Source: a virus
Taxonomy: Duplodnaviria; Heunggongvirae; Uroviricota; Caudoviricetes
Length of the DNA: 9,071 nt
Strand: one strand, 5' to 3'
IMG/VR virus record: IMGVR_UViG_3300029043_000159
Position 1 is the stretch's first letter. Every line of letters starts with the position of its first letter. Below the pieces are notes generated by a model that worked only from the letters and a program-made list of their open reading frames with translations, was not told the origin of the DNA and ran no database searches. Shown here one piece after another: positions 3,472-9,071 of the stretch. A program made the position numbers and the translations under genes.

Positions 3472-3511
3472 TCGGTAGAGGCGTTACGCCGCACCCGGCA
3501 CTAGTCCCTCT

Positions 3512-3534
3512 GCACAAACGCCACCTTTTCGGTG
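3512..3534 (+). terminator. Left half of the rpoD/mug convergent intrinsic terminator, split by the IS4 insertion
   Basis: Joining the left flank 'aaacgc' + one copy of the duplication 'caccttttcggtg' + the right flank 'gcgtttttt' reconstructs 'aaacgccacc-ttttc-ggtggcgtttttt', a 10-bp stem with a 5-nt loop followed by a T-run. With IS4 present only a 4-bp 'cacc/ggtg' stem remains on this side. Confidence 0.6.
3522..3534. repeat. IS4 target-site duplication, left copy (13 bp, 'caccttttcggtg')
   Basis: Identical 13-mer directly abuts both IS4 termini (3522-3534 and 4961-4973). Confidence 0.9.
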
Positions 3535-3583
3535 TAATGCCGATCAGTTAAGGATCAGTTGACCGATCCAGTGGCTGTGTAAG

Positions 3584-3618
3584 AATCCGGAAACGCTCAC
3601 TTGTTTCCGGATTTTTTT
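3584..3618 (+). promoter_or_regulatory. Perfect 11-bp hairpin plus T-run inside the IS4 left end, immediately 5' of the transposase ATG (terminator-like)
   Basis: 'aatccggaaac' (3584-3594), loop 'gctcactt', 'gtttccggatt' (3603-3613), then T-run to 3618; the ATG is at 3619. Seen directly in the sequence; function inferred. Confidence 0.4.
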
Positions 3619-4947
3619 ATGCACATTGGACAGGCTCTTGATCTGGTATCCCGTTACGATTCTCTGCGTAACCCACTGACTTCTCTGGGGGATTACCTCG
3701 ACCCCGAACTCATCTCTCGTTGCCTTGCCGAATCAGGTACTGTAACGCTACGCAAGCGCCGTCTTCCCCTCGAAATGATGGTCTGGTGTATTGTTGGCAT
3801 GGCGCTTGAGCGTAAAGAACCTCTTCACCAGATTGTGAATCGCCTGGACATCATGCTGCCAGGCAATCGCCCCTTCGTTGCCCCCAGTGCCGTTATTCAG
3901 GCCCGCCAGCGCCTGGGAAGTGAGGCTGTCCGCCGCGTGTTCACGAAAACAGCGCAGCTCTGGCATAACGCCACGCCGCATCCGCACTGGTGCGGCCTGA
4001 CCCTGCTGGCCATCGATGGTGTGTTCTGGCGCACACCGGATACACCAGAGAACGATGCAGCCTTCCCCCGCCAGACACATGCCGGGAACCCGGCGCTCTA
4101 CCCGCAGGTCAAAATGGTCTGCCAGATGGAACTGACCAGCCATCTGCTGACGGCTGCAGCCTTCGGCACGATGAAGAACAGCGAAAATGAGCTTGCTGAG
4201 CAACTTATAGAACAAACCGGCGATAACACTCTGACGTTAATGGATAAAGGTTATTACTCACTGGGACTGTTAAATGCCTGGAGCCTGGCGGGAGAACACC
4301 GCCACTGGATGATACCTCTCAGAAAGGGAGCGCAATATGAAGAGATCAGAAAACTGGGTAAAGGCGATCATCTGGTGAAGCTGAAAACCAGCCCGCAGGC
4401 ACGAAAAAAGTGGCCGGGACTGGGAAATGAAGTAACAGCCCGCCTGCTGACCGTGACGCGCAAAGGAAAAGTCTGCCATCTGCTGACGTCGATGACGGAC
4501 GCCATGCGCTTCCCCGGAGGAGAAATGGGGGATCTGTACAGTCATCGCTGGGAAATCGAACTGGGATACAGGGAGATAAAACAGACGATGCAACTGAGCA
4601 GGCTGACGCTGAGAAGTAAAAAGCCGGAGCTTGTGGAGCAAGAGCTGTGGGGTGTCTTACTGGCTTATAATCTGGTGAGATATCAGATGATTAAAATGGC
4701 GGAACATCTGAAAGGTTACTGGCCGAATCAACTGAGTTTCTCAGAATCATGCGGAATGGTGATGAGAATGCTGATGACATTGCAGGGCGCTTCACCGGGA
4801 CGTATACCGGAGCTGATGCGCGATCTTGCAAGTATGGGACAACTTGTGAAATTACCGACAAGAAGGGAAAGGGCCTTCCCGAGAGTGGTAAAAGAGAGGT
4901 CCTGGAAATACCCCACAGCCCCGAAAAAGAGCCAGTCAGTTGCTTAA
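3619..4947 (+). CDS. insG: IS4 transposase (442 aa from the ATG at 3619; the ORF track's 448-aa version starts at an upstream TTG at 3601)
   Basis: Translation [77 protein letters not shown]… ending …[13 protein letters not shown] matches the E. coli K-12 IS4 transposase InsG from memory. Stop TAA at 4945-4947 lies inside the right inverted repeat. Confidence 0.95.
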
Positions 4948-4960
4948 CTGACTGGCATTA

Positions 4961-4973
4961 CACCTTTTCGGTG
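4961..4973. repeat. IS4 target-site duplication, right copy (13 bp, 'caccttttcggtg')
   Basis: Identical to 3522-3534; immediately followed by 'gcgtttttt', the distal half of the split terminator stem and its T-run. Confidence 0.9.
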
Positions 4974-4980
4974 GCGTTTT

Positions 4981-5487: not shown

Positions 5488-5611
5488 ATTTACTCCTTTC
5501 TAACATCACCAGGAAAAGTATAACGGATTGAAAATACATTGTTTATAAAAACAGCAGGCGCGCGGTAATGGCTGGATTGCGACACGGAGTTACTTTATAA
5601 TCCGCTACCAT

Positions 5612-5687
5612 GGCCCCTTAGCTCAGTGGTTAGAGCAGGCGACTCATAATCGCTTGGTCGCTGGTTCAAGTCCAGCAGGGGCCACCA
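5612..5687 (+). tRNA. ileX: tRNA-Ile2 (anticodon CAU, lysidine-type), 76 nt including encoded CCA
   Basis: GGCCCCTTAGCTCAGTGGTTAGAGCAGGCGACTCATAATCGCTTGGTCGCTGGTTCAAGTCCAGCAGGGGCCACCA: 7-bp acceptor stem, GTTCAAGTCC T-arm, anticodon stem GGCGA/TCGCT flanking loop C-T-CAT-A-A. Matches E. coli ileX from memory and sits next to mug as in E. coli. Confidence 0.93.
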
Positions 5688-5695
5688 TATCTATC

Positions 5696-5732
5696 AAGGG
5701 GTTACGTTAACAGCGTGACCCCTTCGTTTTTT
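5696..5732 (+). terminator. Intrinsic terminator downstream of ileX
   Basis: Stem 'aaggggt' (5696-5702) pairs with 'acccctt' (5718-5724), followed by 'cgtttttt'. Confidence 0.55.
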
Positions 5733-5734
5733 CT

Positions 5735-5753
5735 AGGATACCTATAGGATACC
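5735..5753. repeat. Direct repeat 'taggatacc' x2 spaced at a 10-bp period, just downstream of the ileX terminator
   Basis: 'taggatacc' at 5735-5743 and 5745-5753. A related GATACCC/GGGTATC inverted pair occurs at about 6071-6090. Confidence 0.5.
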
Positions 5754-6013
5754 GTGACAGAGTATAAGCAGGTATAAAAACAACAAGTTACGCAACATCA
5801 TACCTGTCATGAAACTTTAACTATCCGACATGATAGCTGGTCGATGATCACGGATAATCCGTTATGTGGATCCCCATATCGGCATCAGGCCCACCAGCGT
5901 GAAGCGTTTTTCATTTTTCGCGGGTATAAAAAATCGATGGGGCTGGCAGTCCGGAAGACGTCAGGGTACAGAGATTTGACCCGCCCCTCCCTGTGCATGA
6001 GCACAATAAGTAA

Positions 6014-6037
6014 CCGAAGGCGGAATTCCGCCCTCGG
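6014..6037. repeat. GC-rich hairpin 'ccgaaggcgg-aatt-ccgccctcgg' (10-bp arms, one mismatch)
   Basis: Read directly from the sequence; lies in an ORF-poor stretch between ileX and the phage-like genes. Confidence 0.5.
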
Positions 6038-6162
6038 TACTTACATATGAGAAACGATATTTCTTCCACCGATACCCTTTATTTGGGTATCGCGAGTAAG
6101 CCCCAAAATCTGGGTGTTACTCTTACTACCCAAACTACGGGTAGTTTCCGTAGTTTCATAGT

Positions 6163-6184
6163 CGAGTTGCAGATCTGCAACTCG
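6163..6184. repeat. Perfect 22-bp palindrome 'cgagttgcagatctgcaactcg'
   Basis: The sequence equals its own reverse complement. A second inverted repeat 'aagtgca-ttttt-gcactt' lies at about 6196-6213, both just 3' of the minus-strand 95-aa ORF. Confidence 0.6.
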
Positions 6185-6231
6185 CCACCAGTTGCTAAGT
6201 GCATTTTTGCACTTTCGGTAATATCAACCAG

Positions 6232-6519
6232 TTACCGCCGTAAGTGCTCCGGCTTCCTCCACTGGTAAGTATTTTTCGCGCTCTCCCTCCGTTGTTGAGA
6301 ACGGCGACGGTATGCCAGCAACTCAAGAACTCTGGTTCGTATGTTGCGCATATCCACGCCGTTAAGCTCAATACCGTCACGGAGCATCACCTCAGCCACC
6401 ACACGCGCGTAATTTTCAGCGGTGACTGTATCCGGCTGCGCGGCCTGTTCGTCAACCAACTGGCTGATTCCACCAGCACAGCGGATTAATCGCAGTATTT
6501 CAGATTCGGTCATTATCAT
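6232..6519 (-). CDS. Hypothetical protein (95 aa), translationally coupled to the upstream TerS-like gene by an ATGA overlap
   Basis: ORF MIMTESEILRLIRCAGGISQLVDEQAAQPDTVTAENYARVVAEVMLRDGIELNGVDMRNIRTRVLELLAYRRRSQQRR…; its ATG (6517-6519) overlaps the TGA stop (6516-6518) of the preceding gene. No family recognised; could be a stand-alone small protein or the residual N-terminus of a deleted downstream gene. Confidence 0.55.
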   Translation of the reverse strand: MIMTESEILRLIRCAGGISQLVDEQAAQPDTVTAENYARVVAEVMLRDGIELNGVDMRNIRTRVLELLAYRRRSQQRRESAKNTYQWRKPEHLRR

Positions 6520-7001
6520 GCCTGTTTTGCGACCTCATTCACTACGTCATTTTTTACCATCCGGCTGATAATCTGATTACGCAAATCGTCAATAATTGAC
6601 TGCACTCTGTTTACTGCCATCGGTTTAAGCCCAGCATCACGTGCCAGAATATTGGGGAGTTTTGCCAGTTCCTCGCTTACGACCTCCCCCCATATAGCCA
6701 TCTCTTTTCGCACATCATCGGCGGGTATGAGTTGCGCCGTTTCCTGTTCGAACTTGAGGCGCTCACGTTCGGACTGATACCAGGCCTTACGGTCATGTGG
6801 CTCCATTTCTTCCAGTGATGCCGGAACGGGAAGATCAAGAAAACAGGTCAGAATGTCAGTCACCCGATAGAGTTTCAGCTTGTCATGCCCTCCGGCTGGC
6901 TGGATGTTTTTCAGCCTTGCCGCCGCAGTCTGACGACATATTCCCGCTATCGCCGCCAGTTGGTTAATGTTCAGCATCAGATTTTTCAGTTCTCGATCCA
7001 T
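6516..7001 (-). CDS. Phage terminase small subunit-like protein (lambda Nu1-like N-terminal DNA-binding domain), 161 aa from the ATG at 7001
   Basis: Start chosen at the Met preceded by 'ctggagcggat' (GGAG about 5 nt upstream); the ORF track's longer version begins in the promoter region. N-terminus 'LNINQLAAIAGICRQTAAARLKNIQPAGGHDKLKLYRVTDIL' parallels lambda Nu1 'VNKKQLADIFGASIRTIQNWQEQGMPVLRGGGKGNEVLYDSAAVI' (N-x-x-QLA-x-I-x-G … GG … LY pattern). Similarity judged by eye from memory of Nu1; it could instead be another helix-turn-helix protein. Confidence 0.5.
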   Translation of the reverse strand: MDRELKNLMLNINQLAAIAGICRQTAAARLKNIQPAGGHDKLKLYRVTDILTCFLDLPVPASLEEMEPHDRKAWYQSERERLKFEQETAQLIPADDVRKEMAIWGEVVSEELAKLPNILARDAGLKPMAVNRVQSIIDDLRNQIISRMVKNDVVNEVAKQA

Positions 7002-7228
7002 ATCCGCTCCAGAATGTTTTAAACATGCATATTGCGAACAACTTTCAGAAGAGGTCAAAAAATGCGCTATATGTTGAGCACAAAACAAGCAAAATTAACA
7101 TACCAAAAATAAAAATACTTAAAATTCAATATCATAGAAAGATGATGATGACGAATGAAAATGCAAAAACTAGCCTTTTTCCGCGCCGCTCCCGCCCCGT
7201 GGCAGGCCACCCCACCGGGAGGACCCGT

Positions 7229-7252
7229 AAAAAAGGCGGCTATAGCCGCCCT
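7229..7252 (-). terminator. Intrinsic terminator acting on minus-strand transcription (perfect 16-bp palindrome 'ggcggctatagccgcc' with a flanking A-run on the plus strand)
   Basis: Plus strand reads 'aaaaaa-ggcggctatagccgcc'; on the minus strand this is a GC hairpin followed by UUUUUU. Lies at the 3' side of the ClpP-like remnant and upstream of the TerS-like gene. Confidence 0.55.
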
Positions 7253-7335
7253 TGAACACTTCACTGATTCTATTAATGCGCTTCTGCTCTCCACCAGCAA
7301 TATTTGCCTCCCCCTGTAGCGATGTAATCATTCCT

Positions 7336-7650
7336 TTAATGTTTTCCGGCATATGTAAAAGTCTCCCGGGCGTTTCGATTCAATTCGCGCCATTGCTCTG
7401 ACAGATGGCAACAATTCATCAGCAAAACCGTGCTTAAGACATTCTTTTCCATCTAAGTTTCATCTTCCTGCATGTCGGCAATTTCCTGTGCCGATTTGCC
7501 CGTTTTTCTGGCATAAGCAGGGATTAATACGGTTTCTACCTTACCCAGCAAATCAGCATAATCACGCATATCGCCAGAGATACCCCACGGCTTATGGATC
7601 ATCATGCAACACATTCGAAATATGCCTCTGTTAATTAAGCCTTTTTTCTG
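7336..7650 (-). pseudogene. Remnant of a ClpP-family (S14-like) serine protease gene, possibly a phage prohead protease: 5'-truncated with an in-frame TAG
   Basis: Minus-strand frame reads …NRGIFRMCCMMIHKPWGISGDMRDYADLLGKVETVLIPAYARKTGKSAQEIADMQEDET*MEKNVLSTVLL…. 'MMIHKPWG … TGKSAQEIADMQED' parallels E. coli ClpP 'RVMIHQPLGG … TGQSLEQIERDTERD' (catalytic His region). The frame opens only after a stop at 7651-7653 with no upstream coding partner, and has an in-frame TAG (plus 7453-7455). By-eye homology from memory. Confidence 0.45.
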
Positions 7651-7710
7651 CTAATGGGCATTGGTTAACTCCAAATGCAATACACCACCATTTATATGGT
7701 TAAAGGCACG

Positions 7711-7739
7711 TTGCATTGAGTTACACATAGTAATATATT
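7711..7739 (+). promoter_or_regulatory. Candidate sigma70 promoter TTGCAT-N17-TATATT driving the AT-rich plus-strand cassette
   Basis: -35 'ttgcat' at 7711-7716, 17-nt spacer, -10 'tatatt' at 7734-7739, within very AT-rich DNA. Confidence 0.4.
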
Positions 7740-7797
7740 AATAAAAAAAATAAATTATGGTATTACTAATGGACATTATCGGCTTCGTTAATAACCC

Positions 7798-8376
7798 GTG
7801 GTTTGTAGGTATCGCTGGAGGGGACTTATTACAACCTGGATTGGTCGCAAGGTTTTTTCTGGTAAAGACAAAAAAGAGTATTTGCTAAAGGTCGAGGCGA
7901 CTAACAAAGAAATAGTTTACTCTTTACGGTCAGCTATATCTGACGCTATCCACCATGATAGAAAAGTAATATTGAGTTTAATGGCTGCAACTGCAAGAAA
8001 AAATGGCGTTTTGCTAAAAGACATTTACACTATTAAAGAAATCACGGAGGATTTAATTAAGGAAGTGATTGATTCTAGCTTCATCCCTTCAGATTATAAA
8101 AAGAATTTTTGCGAAACTCTTTCGAAGATTTATCTCCATGCTGAACCAGCAACAGAAGAATCTTCAGAGAAATATATTTATGAGAAAGAGCAAGCCGCTC
8201 ATCTTTCTAGAAAAAACGAAAGTATCATTGCGAGTGCTACAACTCTTCTTGGCGTTATGGTAGCCTTATTAACGTTCGCATTATCATTCATTCAAAGCGG
8301 TAGTTCAGCACTTGACACACTTCGGGAAGCGCTATTCTTTGGAATTGGGCCGGCTATAGCAAAGTATTCCCAGTAG
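7798..8376 (+). CDS. Hypothetical protein with a single C-terminal transmembrane helix (up to 192 codons; true start uncertain, an in-frame ATG at 7981 would give 131 aa)
   Basis: Only sizeable plus-strand ORF in the AT-rich cassette; AT-rich codon usage. Hydrophobic segment 'IIASATTLLGVMVALLTFALSFI' near the C-terminus. No family recognised. The GTG at 7798 has no obvious Shine-Dalgarno sequence. Confidence 0.45.
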   Translation: MVCRYRWRGLITTWIGRKVFSGKDKKEYLLKVEATNKEIVYSLRSAISDAIHHDRKVILSLMAATARKNGVLLKDIYTIKEITEDLIKEVIDSSFIPSDYKKNFCETLSKIYLHAEPATEESSEKYIYEKEQAAHLSRKNESIIASATTLLGVMVALLTFALSFIQSGSSALDTLREALFFGIGPAIAKYSQ

Positions 8377-8405
8377 CTTTCCCAGCTTTCATCGCGTTGG
8401 TGTCA

Positions 8406-8546
8406 ATGATGATATTGGTCATAATAAAAACAGTAATAAATAAAAAGGAAAGGACCTTCTTTATTTCAGCAGAGCCACAGGAGAATAAAAATAATAAAAC
8501 AGAAAACGCTAAGAAAGAAAGTGGCGATGAAAAAGATTCGAAGTAG
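8406..8546 (+). CDS. Possible small membrane peptide (46 aa from the ATG; the frame is open upstream and encodes a hydrophobic stretch followed by a Lys/Glu-rich tail)
   Basis: Open frame from 8316 reads …FPAFIALVSMMILVIIKTVINKKERTFFISAEPQENKNNKTENAKKESGDEKDSK*. It overlaps the 3' end of the 192-codon ORF in another frame; no clear ribosome-binding site. Confidence 0.2.
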   Translation: MMILVIIKTVINKKERTFFISAEPQENKNNKTENAKKESGDEKDSK

Positions 8547-8578
8547 TTTTTTGTAAATTGACTTCAAATAACAGATTA

Positions 8579-8606
8579 AAGGTTGCTCCGATATGGGGTA
8601 ACCTTT
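8579..8606 (+). terminator. Weak hairpin plus T-rich tract, possible terminator for the plus-strand cassette
   Basis: 'aaggtt' … 'aacctt' with a 16-nt loop, followed by 'ttatatattttta'. Weak. Confidence 0.2.
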
Positions 8607-8653
8607 TATATATTTTTATACAGATATACTCGGTCATTTATGGAATATTATGA

Positions 8654-9071
8654 TTAAGCCCATAACTCACCACTTTCTGATTCTTGCGCCCTTCGAACCA
8701 TCTCATCGCGTAAATCATCTATAACGCCCTGAACACGCGATACCGCTGACGGCGTTAACGCACAATCTCGTTAGAGGATATCCGGAAGCGTTTCCAGTTC
8801 CTGAACAACAGCCTTTGCCAGGGTGGAATATTCACGCGCAACCTCTTCAGAGGGTAGAAGCTCCCGTTCTTCTTTTTCGAGCTTGAGCCTTTCATTTTCC
8901 CACTGATACCATGCCTTTCTATCCTGCGGCGACATTTCACCATTTCCTCGCACCGATGGCATGATAAGCACTCGTAAGGCTTTCCCAAGTTCGTACTGTT
9001 TAAGGTTTTCCCCGTTCCCGCCGACTAACTCCAGATCACGCAGCCGCCGCGCAACCAAGTTACGATTCATG
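8654..9071 (-). pseudogene. Second, diverged terminase-small-subunit-like gene: in-frame TAA (plus 8771-8773), 5' end beyond the window
   Basis: Minus-strand frame reads …SPQDRKAWYQWENERLKLEKEERELLPSEEVAREYSTLAKAVVQELETLPDIL*RDCALTPSAVSRVQGVIDDLRDEMVRRAQESESGELWA*. It aligns along its length with copy 1 (…EPHDRKAWYQSERERLKFEQETAQLIPADDVRKEMAIWGEVVSEELAKLPNILARDAGLKPMAVNRVQSIIDDLRNQIISRMV…); the TAA sits where copy 1 has Ala. The N-terminal alignment implies the true start is past position 9071. Confidence 0.6.

What the first reader, a model, noticed from the sequence alone, without database searches (positions are those of the whole stretch)
6232..7260. Orphan packaging module next to ileX: cos-like site, TerS-like gene and a coupled 95-aa ORF, with no large terminase
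An intact Nu1-like gene with a good ribosome-binding site is tightly coupled (ATGA overlap) to a 95-aa ORF, but nothing resembling TerL follows before the tRNA. A small-terminase homologue plus cos without its own TerL is the logic used by helper-dependent satellites (E. coli PICI-type elements are reported to redirect helper-phage packaging this way) and could equally act as a packaging decoy that interferes with phages. Which applies here, if either, is inference; the element may simply be a deletion remnant.
Basis: partly seen in the sequence, partly recalled or inferred. Interest (0 to 1): 0.6.

Follow-up and report, generated by a model that had tools for sequence, protein, structure and literature searches.

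The report
Packaging end of a phage satellite
This is the packaging end of a phage-dependent satellite island (PICI) inserted at the ileX tRNA gene: a helper-type cos site, a small-terminase copy whose front half matches helper phages and whose back half is satellite-specific, and a small gene that ends many such islands; it is a known kind of element, but this module has not been tested in the literature I could search.

Summary
On the minus strand lie a cos site (7228-7159), an intact 161-aa small-terminase homologue (7001-6516, DUF1441/phrog_141) and a tightly coupled 93/95-aa ORF (6513/6519-6232). No TerL lies before ileX (5612-5687).

It is not an orphan phage remnant. It is the normal terminal module of a Gram-negative PICI. 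In a near-identical genome the island is 12.8 kb, bounded by a 46-bp ileX repeat, with integrase, an AlpA-like HTH protein and primase.

The TerS-like gene is a mosaic. The cos region and codons 1-94 are 96-98% identical to a lambdoid prophage's cos/terS. Codons 95-161 are a PICI-only allele: 97-99% identical among PICIs, about 60% to phages, and lacking the acidic tail found on nearly all other full-length family members.

The 93-aa gene is the last gene of at least three PICI classes, including EcCICFT073, where it follows rppA. It is absent from 50,697 phage records.

The protein is not an Rpp homologue by sequence but sits in Rpp's position. I infer it redirects or perturbs helper terminase. 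This is untested. The island in this window is partly decayed: a capsid-gene fragment and a truncated second TerS copy.

Verdict: a new variant of a known kind, of moderate interest.

The parts
5612..5687 (+). ileX tRNA gene (tRNA-Ile2, anticodon CAT), the integration target
   Evidence: ARAGORN; Rfam tRNA at 73 bits; annotated tRNA-Ile in RefSeq.
5642..5687 (+). att core: the 46-bp 3' part of ileX, repeated exactly at the far (integrase) end of the island
   Evidence: Direct repeat D3 at L001 20143-20188 and 32931-32976, spacing 12,788 bp. Window coordinate = L001 coordinate minus 14,501.
5696..5724 (+). Terminator-like hairpin plus T-run just after ileX, supplied by island DNA
   Evidence: Terminator scan. 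It lies beyond the att core, so it is island sequence.
5732..5776 (.). 45-bp repeat (GGATACC-TATA-GGATACC motif) found just inside both island ends; candidate integrase arm sites
   Evidence: Repeat D5 at L001 20233-20277 and 32801-32845, 78% identical. The function is inferred.
5860..6231 (-). Strongly structured non-coding block downstream of the 93-aa gene, shared by PICIs at ileX, clpS and thiM
   Evidence: Alignment A6. RNA fold -154.9 kcal/mol, z = -7.1. No Rfam family. Absent from EcCICFT073. Function unknown.
6232..6519 (-). 93-aa gene (95 aa from the first ATG; probable start 6513); the conserved last gene of Gram-negative PICIs
   Evidence: phrog_1561 at E 1e-50, no Pfam. 730 protein clusters in Enterobacteriaceae. 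No tblastn hit in 50,697 phage records. 70% identical to the gene after rppA in EcCICFT073. Terminal gene in 88 of 88 loci. dN/dS 0.24.
6516..7001 (-). 161-aa PICI small-terminase paralogue: helper-type N-half (codons 1-94) plus PICI-specific C-half (95-161) without an acidic tail
   Evidence: DUF1441 and phrog_141. Mosaic identities. Bimodal C-half. Genomic contexts. dN/dS 0.12.
7002..7185 (-). cosB-equivalent spacer between the predicted cosN and the terS-like start
   Evidence: With the 70-bp cos block, the whole cos-to-ATG segment (7228-7002) is 96.5% identical to prophage L011 but only 66-80% to other PICIs. Its sequence co-varies with the DNA-binding half of the downstream gene.
7186..7197 (-). 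Predicted 12-nt cohesive end, GGGCGGGAGCGG (cosN)
   Evidence: By-eye alignment to lambda ACG|GGGCGGCGACCT|CGCGG (my recollection of the lambda sequence, not a tool result) and to the annotated cohesive end of phage LLS. The cut site itself is inferred.
7159..7228 (-). Conserved cosQ/cosN block shared with phages of the mEp460/phi458 type
   Evidence: Alignment with three phages. 0-1 mismatches in the phage and prophage loci L003, L005 and L011-L014; 5 in phi458 (L006).
7229..7251 (-). Terminator hairpin GGGCGGCTATAGCCGCC plus T6, closing the upstream capsid-gene remnant
   Evidence: Read directly from the sequence. The same hairpin/T-run precedes the cos blocks in other PICIs.
7254..7611 (-). 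Decayed fragment of a ClpP-protease/major-capsid fusion gene: residues 103-227 of 637, spread over three frames
   Evidence: tblastn; Pfam CLP_protease profile positions 108-158; RefSeq pseudogene. The 5' boundary lies near the HE-PICI attB site CLP_protease:110 of PMC10111431.
7769..8557 (+). Accessory ORF: 262 aa in strain MS1679, frameshifted in this window
   Evidence: Translations compared. No Pfam match above the curated cut-off (one weak BrkB hit, E 0.0056); no NCBIfam or PADLOC match.
8782..9071 (-). Second, truncated DUF1441 copy, which stops at family residue ~113 and runs off the window
   Evidence: Pfam; translation of L001 23283-23744; 43% identical to copy 1.

Best explanation
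The region is the terminal packaging module of a Gram-negative phage-inducible chromosomal island (PICI) integrated at ileX.

**Shown**
- It carries a cos site of the mEp460/phi458 lambdoid type.
- It carries a chimeric small-terminase paralogue. Its DNA-binding N-half and the adjoining cosB spacer are near-identical to those of a lambdoid prophage. Its C-half is a PICI-only allele without the acidic tail.
- It carries the 93-aa gene that ends many PICIs.

**Inferred mechanism**
1. A helper phage of this type induces the island.
2. The paralogue binds cosB beside the island's cosN.
3. Because its N-half is the helper's own, it co-assembles with helper TerS.
4. The mixed complex uses helper TerS and TerL to cut and package island concatemers into helper-built heads, and it lowers helper packaging.

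This makes it the positional and probably functional counterpart of Rpp in EcCICFT073, built from a different TerS family. The role of the 93-aa protein is unknown. My best guess is a general PICI late or transfer function, not one tied to a TerS type.

Confidence that this is a PICI packaging module is about 0.9. Confidence in the co-assembly mechanism is about 0.4.
For: **PICI identity**
- 46-bp ileX att repeat and a 12.8-kb island with a 473-aa integrase, an HTH_17 protein, Icd-like and DUF4222 proteins and a primase, all pointing toward ileX.
- tRNA-Ile2 PICIs carrying a CLP_protease gene are described in PMC10111431.

**TerS family and cos**
- Family hits; cos block.

**Mosaic**
- Window versus prophage L011: 96.5% (cos to ATG), 97.5% (codons 1-94), 60.5% (codons 95 to stop).
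- PICI L015 versus phage phi458: 96.3%, 98.9%, 59.6%.
- PICI versus PICI in the C-half: 96.6-99.5%. Phage versus phage in the C-half: 98-99%.
- The PICI C-half combines with at least four N-half types. Nearly all other full-length family members end in an acidic tail.
- The best phage match to the PICI C-half is 60%.

**Context**
- The PICI allele is followed by the 93-aa gene and never by TerL.
- The phage allele is followed by a GpA-type TerL.

**Positional equivalence to Rpp**
- In EcCICFT073 cosN lies 90 nt upstream of rppA, and the 93-aa homologue follows it.

**Background**
- In lambda/21 hybrids the TerS N-half sets cosB specificity and the C-half sets TerL binding. Rpp lacks a TerL-binding end (PMC9026076).

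**Selection**
- dN/dS is 0.12 for the TerS-like gene and 0.24 for the 93-aa gene, with no disrupted copies.
Against: - No experiment exists for this module in the searched literature.
- The DNA-binding half and cosB are the same as a candidate helper's. A mixed complex therefore gives no obvious way to prefer island DNA over phage DNA, unlike Rpp, whose cosB differs from the helper's.
- Loss of the acidic tail is only suggestive. No TerL-binding site has been mapped in this family.
- Structure models and fold searches gave nothing beyond a MerR-like winged helix in the N-terminus.
- The island here has lost the second, PICI-invariant cos and a working capsid gene, so it may no longer be mobilised.
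- In EcCICFT073 no late-region gene other than rppA blocked lambda. This argues against an interference role for the 93-aa protein.
Confidence: 0.4

Rival explanations
1. Stand-alone satellite TerS, as in pac-type SaPIs. The 161-aa protein forms its own oligomer, binds the island's cosB and recruits helper TerL directly through its PICI-specific C-half, without needing helper TerS.
For: - It is full length: 161 aa against 163-166 aa in phages.
- All predicted helices of the family are present.
- It sits next to a complete cos.
- The C-half allele is highly conserved among PICIs, as expected for a working interface.
- The 2018 PICI paper notes that some Gram-negative PICIs carry terS homologues.
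Against: - The C-half is only about 60% identical to the phage allele, which is itself 98-99% conserved among phages. It also lacks the acidic tail kept by nearly all other full-length members across genera. It therefore differs exactly where TerL specificity would be expected.
- An independent TerS/cosB pair would not need to track helper N-halves at 96-99% identity.
Confidence: 0.25
2. Domesticated anti-phage decoy. The protein occupies phage cosB, or poisons phage TerS rings, but cannot bring in TerL. It blocks lambdoid phage packaging for the host's benefit, and it is kept in an island that is otherwise decaying.
For: - In this window the terS-like gene and the 93-aa gene are intact. The neighbouring capsid gene, the second TerS copy and an accessory ORF are all broken.
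- The N-half and cosB are identical to a prophage's.
- The acidic tail is lost.
- Rpp shows that such proteins can block phages strongly.
Against: - The same allele sits in intact PICIs that have an integrase, a primase, a full capsid gene and two cos sites. It is therefore part of the satellite life cycle and not specific to decayed islands.
- It would also block the island's own cos.
- No PADLOC match.
Confidence: 0.15
3. Inert remnant of a deleted lambdoid prophage, with no present function.
For: - Pseudogene fragments lie next to it.
- Only 3 of 5,426 genomes share this exact composite.
Against: - The module is the regular end of PICIs in 30 of 88 surveyed loci and is found in 187 complete genomes.
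- The 93-aa gene is absent from 50,697 phage records.
- The C-half allele is PICI-specific.
- Both genes are under purifying selection with no disrupted copies.
- The island has att repeats and an integrase.
Confidence: 0.05

Closest known systems
Rpp module of EcCICFT073 (RppA/B/C; PDB 6HLK, 6HN7; PMC6739421)
   Same: - Same place in the same kind of island: cosN, then a TerS-derived DNA-binding protein, then the 93-aa gene, then the att end.
- No TerL in the island.
- The N-terminus is a winged-helix domain of TerS type.
   Different: - No detectable sequence similarity: phmmer and a family profile against the PDB found no Rpp or Nu1 chain, and BLASTP gave E 8.8.
- Derived from DUF1441 TerS, not Nu1.
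- Full length rather than 30-40 residues shorter than TerS.
- Its cosB equals that of a candidate helper, whereas the Rpp-recognised cosB differs from the helper's.
Small terminase of mEp460/phi458/PhiR55_1-type lambdoid phages (Pfam DUF1441, phrog_141)
   Same: - Same family and same position behind cos.
- N-half up to 100% identical at protein level (P0167).
   Different: - C-half about 60% identical, and the acidic tail is missing.
- Followed by the 93-aa gene instead of a GpA-type TerL, the 70-aa gene that follows it and the portal gene.
SaPI-encoded TerS with Ppi (pac-type Gram-positive PICIs)
   Same: A satellite carries its own TerS homologue and no TerL, with small accessory genes beside it (background summarised).
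   Different: - cos rather than headful (pac) packaging.
- Unrelated protein family.
- The packaging site is not distinct from that of a candidate helper.
- No evidence that the 93-aa protein acts like Ppi. In EcCICFT073 no late gene other than rppA blocked lambda.
tRNA-Ile2 PICIs and HE-PICI composites (Tommasini, Mageeney and Williams 2023, PMC10111431)
   Same: - Same integration site.
- Same CLP_protease-bearing late zone.
- Composite or tandem structures with duplicated late segments.
- The ClpP fragment here starts near their attB position 110.
   Different: - That paper says these PICIs lack alpA, whereas an HTH_17 protein is present here.
- In the passages I read, it does not analyse the TerS-like gene, the 93-aa gene or cos.
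Capsid-forming PICIs (EcCIEDL933 type)
   Same: - They end with the same 93-aa gene.
- Same early backbone: HTH protein, Icd-like, DUF4222 and primase.
   Different: - cf-PICIs encode their own TerS (P27 type), TerL, HNH, portal, protease and capsid.
- This island has none of TerL, HNH or portal.

Membership tests
Gram-negative PICI | Site-specific integration with flanking att repeats and an integrase at one end | tested here: met
   46-bp exact repeat of the ileX 3' part, 12,788 bp apart. A 473-aa tyrosine recombinase lies at the far end, in the 99.6-100% identical strain MS1679. The far end lies outside the window.
Gram-negative PICI | AlpA-type regulator and primase/replication module, genes unidirectional, size 10-20 kb | tested here: met
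   HTH_17 protein (E 1e-11), DNA primase family protein and DUF4222 protein. Most genes, including int, the HTH gene, primase and the late genes, point toward ileX; three small or accessory ORFs are opposite. Size 12.8 kb.
Gram-negative PICI | No full set of virion and lysis genes | tested here: met
   No TerL, portal, tail or lysis genes are annotated. tblastn for TerL and portal in the window was negative.
Gram-negative PICI | Induction and high-frequency transfer by a helper phage | not testable with these tools
   Needs an experiment. Candidate helpers are phi458/mEp460-type phages and the L011-type prophage.
Rpp family | Sequence homology to RppA/B/C | tested here: not met
   phmmer and an HMM of alignment A4 against the PDB did not find 6HLK or 6HN7 at E up to 1 and 10 respectively. 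RppA itself finds 6HLK at 5e-31. BLASTP of the 161-aa protein against RppA gave E 8.8.
Rpp family | TerS-like winged-helix DNA-binding domain at the N-terminus | tested here: met
   The N-half is identical to a prophage TerS. Foldseek gave local hits to MerR-type domains with probability up to 0.96. The model is of modest quality.
Rpp family | Shorter than TerS, lacking the TerL-binding end | tested here: inconclusive
   161 aa against 163-166 aa, so it is not shorter. The acidic tail kept by nearly all other full-length members is replaced by MVKNDVVNEVAKQA. Whether that tail binds TerL is unknown.
Rpp family | Island cosB differs from helper cosB | tested here: not met
   The cos-to-ATG spacer is 96.5% identical to prophage L011. 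A PICI-invariant cosB exists at a second cos in intact relatives, but it is absent here.
Rpp family | Binds helper TerS and blocks the helper | not testable with these tools
   Needs a two-hybrid or pull-down assay and plaque assays.
Phage small terminase (DUF1441 / phrog_141) | Family profile match over the full length | tested here: met
   DUF1441 E 1.3e-36, residues 10-148. phrog_141 E 1e-57, residues 1-152.
Phage small terminase (DUF1441 / phrog_141) | Immediately followed by the cognate TerL gene | tested here: not met
   It is followed by the 93-aa gene. No GpA-type TerL was found in any of 88 PICI loci. Phage copies overlap the TerL start.
Capsid-forming PICI | Own TerS, TerL, HNH, portal, protease and capsid genes | tested here: not met
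   Only a capsid/protease pseudogene and fragments are present.
P4-like satellite | psu/delta/sid genes and a P2-type cos | not tested
   No such products are annotated in the island, and the cos is of lambda type. No dedicated search was run.

The most novel reading that the evidence does not exclude
PICIs of this lineage use a packaging-hijack design that has not been described. They keep a private, conserved C-terminal half of TerS, without the acidic tail, together with the 93-aa terminal gene. They repeatedly capture the cosB-plus-DNA-binding cassette from whichever lambdoid helper is current. The chimeric protein can then slot into that helper's terminase and bias or block packaging. The 93-aa protein would be a general transfer factor of Gram-negative PICIs that has so far been overlooked.
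Probability: 0.3. Interest if true: 0.65.

Novelty: new variant of a known kind. Interest (0 to 1): 0.45.

Why it matters
Rpp is the only mechanism worked out so far for how Gram-negative PICIs take over cos packaging, and it applies to lambda/Nu1-type helpers. This module appears to be the equivalent for helpers with the DUF1441-type small terminase, a group that includes Stx2a-, Stx2d- and cdt-converting lambdoid phages.

It offers a clean natural experiment. The same DNA-binding half occurs with two sharply different C-halves, one confined to phages and one confined to satellites. Testing what the satellite half does would show which part of this terminase family contacts TerL. It would also show how satellites keep pace with changing helper specificities.

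The 93-aa gene is a simple sequence marker for the end of several PICI classes.

Tried and rejected
- **95-aa product versus TerL.** BLASTP against the mEp460 TerL gave no similarity (E 5.4). The TerL N-terminus idea is rejected.
- **PDB sequence searches.** Both proteins, and a profile of the TerS family, returned only chance-level hits. These included weak ankyrin/DARPin matches for the 93-aa protein.
- **Structure models and fold searches.**
  - The AlphaFold models have pLDDT 75 and 79.
  - The 93-aa model had no Foldseek match at E below 1.
- **Remote homologues of the 93-aa protein.** A search of 1.84 billion representatives found a narrow family: 38 representatives, mostly fragments.
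- **Family libraries.** NCBIfam and PADLOC gave no hits. Rfam matched only the tRNA, plus its sub-threshold antisense hit.
- **Species-representative genome scan.** It returned a single locus.
- **EH41 island proteins.** Its 137-aa and 180-aa proteins are not Rpp. The 180-aa protein is Nu1-family.
- **cf-PICI gene '1792'.** I could not map this hypothetical gene, whose mutation impaired transfer, to the 93-aa gene.
- **Literature.** I found no paper on DUF1441 in satellites and none on c1504.
Full report
**1. What is in the window**

The window is E. coli chromosome. It reads dnaG, rpoD, an IS4-family insertion, mug, then a tRNA with anticodon CAT at 5612-5687 that RefSeq annotates as tRNA-Ile, i.e. 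ileX. Everything beyond 5687 is island DNA, and its genes run on the minus strand toward the tRNA.

The reported features are all there.
- A 161-aa ORF runs from the ATG at 7001 to the stop at 6518-6516. GGAG lies five bases before the ATG.
- A small ORF has its first ATG overlapping that stop (ATGA at 6519-6516). Its second ATG, at 6513, is the start used by homologues and by RefSeq, giving 93 aa.
- A GC-rich block lies upstream, at 7228-7159.

The 161-aa protein matches Pfam DUF1441 (E 1.3e-36) and phrog_141 'terminase small subunit' (E 1e-57). It is 66-71% identical to the annotated TerS of phages mEp460, phi458 and PhiR55_1. tblastn with two TerL types and two portal types found nothing in the window.

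**2. The cos site is real by homology**

The 70-bp block is identical, or differs at one base, from the sequence just upstream of terS in phages 606R10 and PhiR55_1 and in four prophage loci. It differs at five bases in phi458. In every case it sits about 215-230 bp before the terS start.

By eye it aligns to lambda's ACG|GGGCGGCGACCT|CGCGG as ACG|GGGCGGGAGCGG|CGCGG. The lambda sequence is from my own recollection. Phage LLS has a DUF1441 TerS 54% identical to this one, and its record annotates a 12-nt 5' cohesive end, GGGCGGCGCGCT, 129 nt before its terS. The exact cut site here (7197-7186) is therefore inferred.

A hairpin plus T6 (7251-7229) closes the upstream gene. The same hairpin-then-cos arrangement recurs in related islands.

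**3. The surroundings show a PICI**

Strain MS1679 matches positions 5500-9071 at 99.6% and the finding region at 100%. In that genome the island is 12.8 kb.
- It is bounded by a 46-bp exact repeat of the ileX 3' part.
- From the far end it carries a 473-aa tyrosine recombinase, an HTH_17 (AlpA-like) protein, Icd-like and DUF4222 proteins, a primase and a HEPN protein.
- It then carries a frameshifted ClpP-protease/major-capsid fusion, a truncated DUF1441 copy and a plus-strand accessory gene.
- It ends with a ClpP fragment, cos, the intact DUF1441 gene and the 93-aa gene.

Tommasini, Mageeney and Williams (PMC10111431) describe PICIs in tRNA-Ile2 that carry a CLP_protease gene. They also describe invasion of that gene at profile position 110 by helper-embedded PICIs, and tandem composites with duplicated late segments. 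The ClpP fragment here retains residues 103-227 of the 637-aa fusion, spread over three frames. Its 5' boundary fits that attB position.

So this particular island is a decayed composite. That reading of its history is inference.

**4. The module is the standard end of intact PICIs**

Intact relatives at ileX and at clpS read primase, SSB, ClpP/capsid fusion (637 aa), cos, DUF1441 gene (162 aa), 93-aa gene, att.

I surveyed 88 loci that contain the 93-aa gene: 80 from IMG/VR plus 8 reference loci. The gene was always the last recognisable gene. Its upstream neighbour was:

| Upstream neighbour | Loci |
|---|---|
| DUF1441 TerS-like gene | 30 |
| Nu1-family 180-aa gene | 32 |
| cf-PICI TerL | 16 |
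| rppA | 3 |
| A capsid-module gene directly | 7 |

No GpA-type TerL or portal was found within 9 kb upstream on the same strand in any locus. The full module covers at least 80% of the query in 187 of 5,426 complete E. coli genomes.

**5. The TerS-like gene is a checkerboard mosaic**

Nucleotide identities by segment:

| Pair | cos to ATG | Codons 1-94 | Codons 95 to stop |
|---|---|---|---|
| Window vs prophage L011 | 96.5% | 97.5% | 60.5% |
| PICI L015 vs phage phi458 | 96.3% | 98.9% | 59.6% |
| PICI vs PICI | 66-80% | 70-75% | 96.6-99.5% |
| Phage vs phage | 78-80% | 76-81% | 98-99% |

Prophage L011's terS is followed by a GpA-type TerL, the 70-aa gene that follows it, a portal and a capsid fusion.

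Among 107 near-full-length family clusters, identity to the query over residues 95-150 is bimodal.
- 13 clusters score 82-98% and all end in a ...MVKNDVVNEVAKQA-type tail. They combine with at least four DNA-binding-half types.
- All the others score 61% or less, and nearly all end in an acidic tail, across Escherichia, Salmonella, Enterobacter, Providencia, Proteus, Serratia and Hafnia.

The best phage match to the PICI C-half in 50,697 records is 60%.

The cosB spacer and the DNA-binding half therefore move together as a cassette shared between satellites and phages. The C-half is specific to lifestyle.

Both genes are under purifying selection, with no disrupted copies in the survey:
- 161-aa gene: dN/dS 0.12.
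- 93-aa gene: dN/dS 0.24 over 43 alleles.

**6. The 93-aa gene**

- It matches phrog_1561 (function unknown) and no Pfam, NCBIfam or PADLOC family.
- It has no tblastn hit in the phage collection.
- It forms a narrow enterobacterial family.
- The model has three helices and a basic C-terminal tail with a near-invariant Y-x-W-(K/R)-K-P-E-R-L-R-R end. It matches no known fold.
- It has no similarity to TerL.

It is 70% identical to the gene that follows rppA in EcCICFT073, and it also follows TerL in cf-PICI-type islands. Its role therefore does not depend on the TerS type.

In the Rpp paper, none of the late-region genes other than c1503 (rppA) blocked lambda when expressed alone. If the homologue was among those tested, a simple interference role is unlikely. 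Its function remains unknown.

**7. Comparison with Rpp**

In CFT073 the 144-aa gene at L019 2660-3094 is RppA (phmmer 5e-31 to RppC, PDB 6HLK). An exact lambda cosN lies 90 nt upstream of it. A second, inverted cosN lies between it and the 93-aa gene. The resident helper prophage has its own cosN 188 nt before its TerS.

So cos, then a TerS-derived gene, then the 93-aa gene, is the same layout as here. But the 161-aa protein shows no sequence similarity to Rpp. It is not shortened. Its cosB is the helper's, not a private one. It works in Rpp's place but is not a member of the Rpp family.

**8. Mechanism**

In lambda/21 hybrids the TerS N-half sets cosB specificity and the C-half sets TerL binding. 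Rpp is thought to rely on helper TerS to bring in TerL (PMC9026076).

By analogy, a protein that has the helper's own N-half should bind the same cosB and should be able to co-assemble with helper TerS. That N-half includes the winged-helix domain and the highly conserved central helix. Its divergent, tail-less C-half should change how the complex deals with TerL.

My weighting of the readings is:

| Reading | Confidence |
|---|---|
| Co-assembly with helper TerS (preferred) | 0.4 |
| Stand-alone satellite TerS | 0.25 |
| Retained anti-phage decoy | 0.15 |
| Inert remnant | 0.05 |

The main weakness of every reading is the same: with identical cosB, it is unclear how island DNA would be preferred.

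Intact relatives carry a second cos upstream of the capsid gene. Its downstream spacer is invariant among PICIs, whatever their DNA-binding cassette. That may be where discrimination happens. This second cos is missing from the island in the window.

**9. Verdict**

- The satellite interpretation is supported.
- The element is a known kind (a Gram-negative PICI at tRNA-Ile2), with a packaging module that has not, to my knowledge, been characterised.
- The mosaic structure gives a clear, testable lead.

Noticed in passing
window 3480-4975 (transposase ORF 3601-4947, + strand): An IS4-family element (Nterm_IS4 plus DDE_Tnp_1) lies in the short rpoD-mug spacer. The spacer is 78 bp in strain MS1679 and about 1,510 bp here.
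   Followed up: partly
window 5860-6231 (- strand): The non-coding stretch after the 93-aa gene folds far better than shuffled sequence (z = -7.1) as a row of near-perfect hairpins. One is the 20-bp palindrome GAGTTGCAGATCTGCAACTC. The stretch is shared almost unchanged by PICIs at ileX, clpS and thiM but is absent from EcCICFT073. It matches no Rfam family. The first hairpin after the stop codon varies between islands in a compensatory way.
   Followed up: partly
L015 4250-4840 and the equivalent in L018, L022, L030, L039 and L047 (not in the window): Intact PICIs of this type carry a second cos upstream of the capsid-fusion gene. Its downstream spacer is invariant among PICIs, contains TTTCACCTG twice and ends in a terminator hairpin. 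This recalls the two cos sites of EcCICFT073. What reads this spacer is unknown.
   Followed up: partly
window 7254-7611 (- strand): The capsid-fusion gene is reduced to residues 103-227 in three frames. Its 5' boundary coincides with the published HE-PICI integration position in CLP_protease (about 110). This suggests a past satellite-into-satellite insertion followed by deletions.
   Followed up: partly
window 7769-8557 (+ strand): An accessory ORF of 262 aa in strain MS1679 is frameshifted in this window. It matches no Pfam family above the curated cut-off (only a weak BrkB hit, E 0.0056) and no NCBIfam or PADLOC family.
   Followed up: partly
window 8782-9071 (- strand), continuing to L001 23744: A second DUF1441 copy, 43% identical to the first, stops at family residue ~113. 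It has no 93-aa gene after it.
   Followed up: yes
window 5696-5724 (+ strand): The terminator-like hairpin right after ileX is island DNA, so the island supplies the tRNA gene's terminator.
   Followed up: no
L009 14538-15080 and 31 other surveyed loci: PICIs with a lambda-type capsid often carry a 180-aa Nu1-family protein where EcCICFT073 has rppA. The Pfam Phage_Nu1 match covers only profile positions 35-162, and the protein ends in a basic tail. This may be a third type of satellite TerS derivative.
   Followed up: partly
L001 26077-26790: A HEPN-domain gene sits between the primase and the capsid gene on the opposite strand. This looks like an accessory or defence slot. It has no PADLOC match.
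   Followed up: partly
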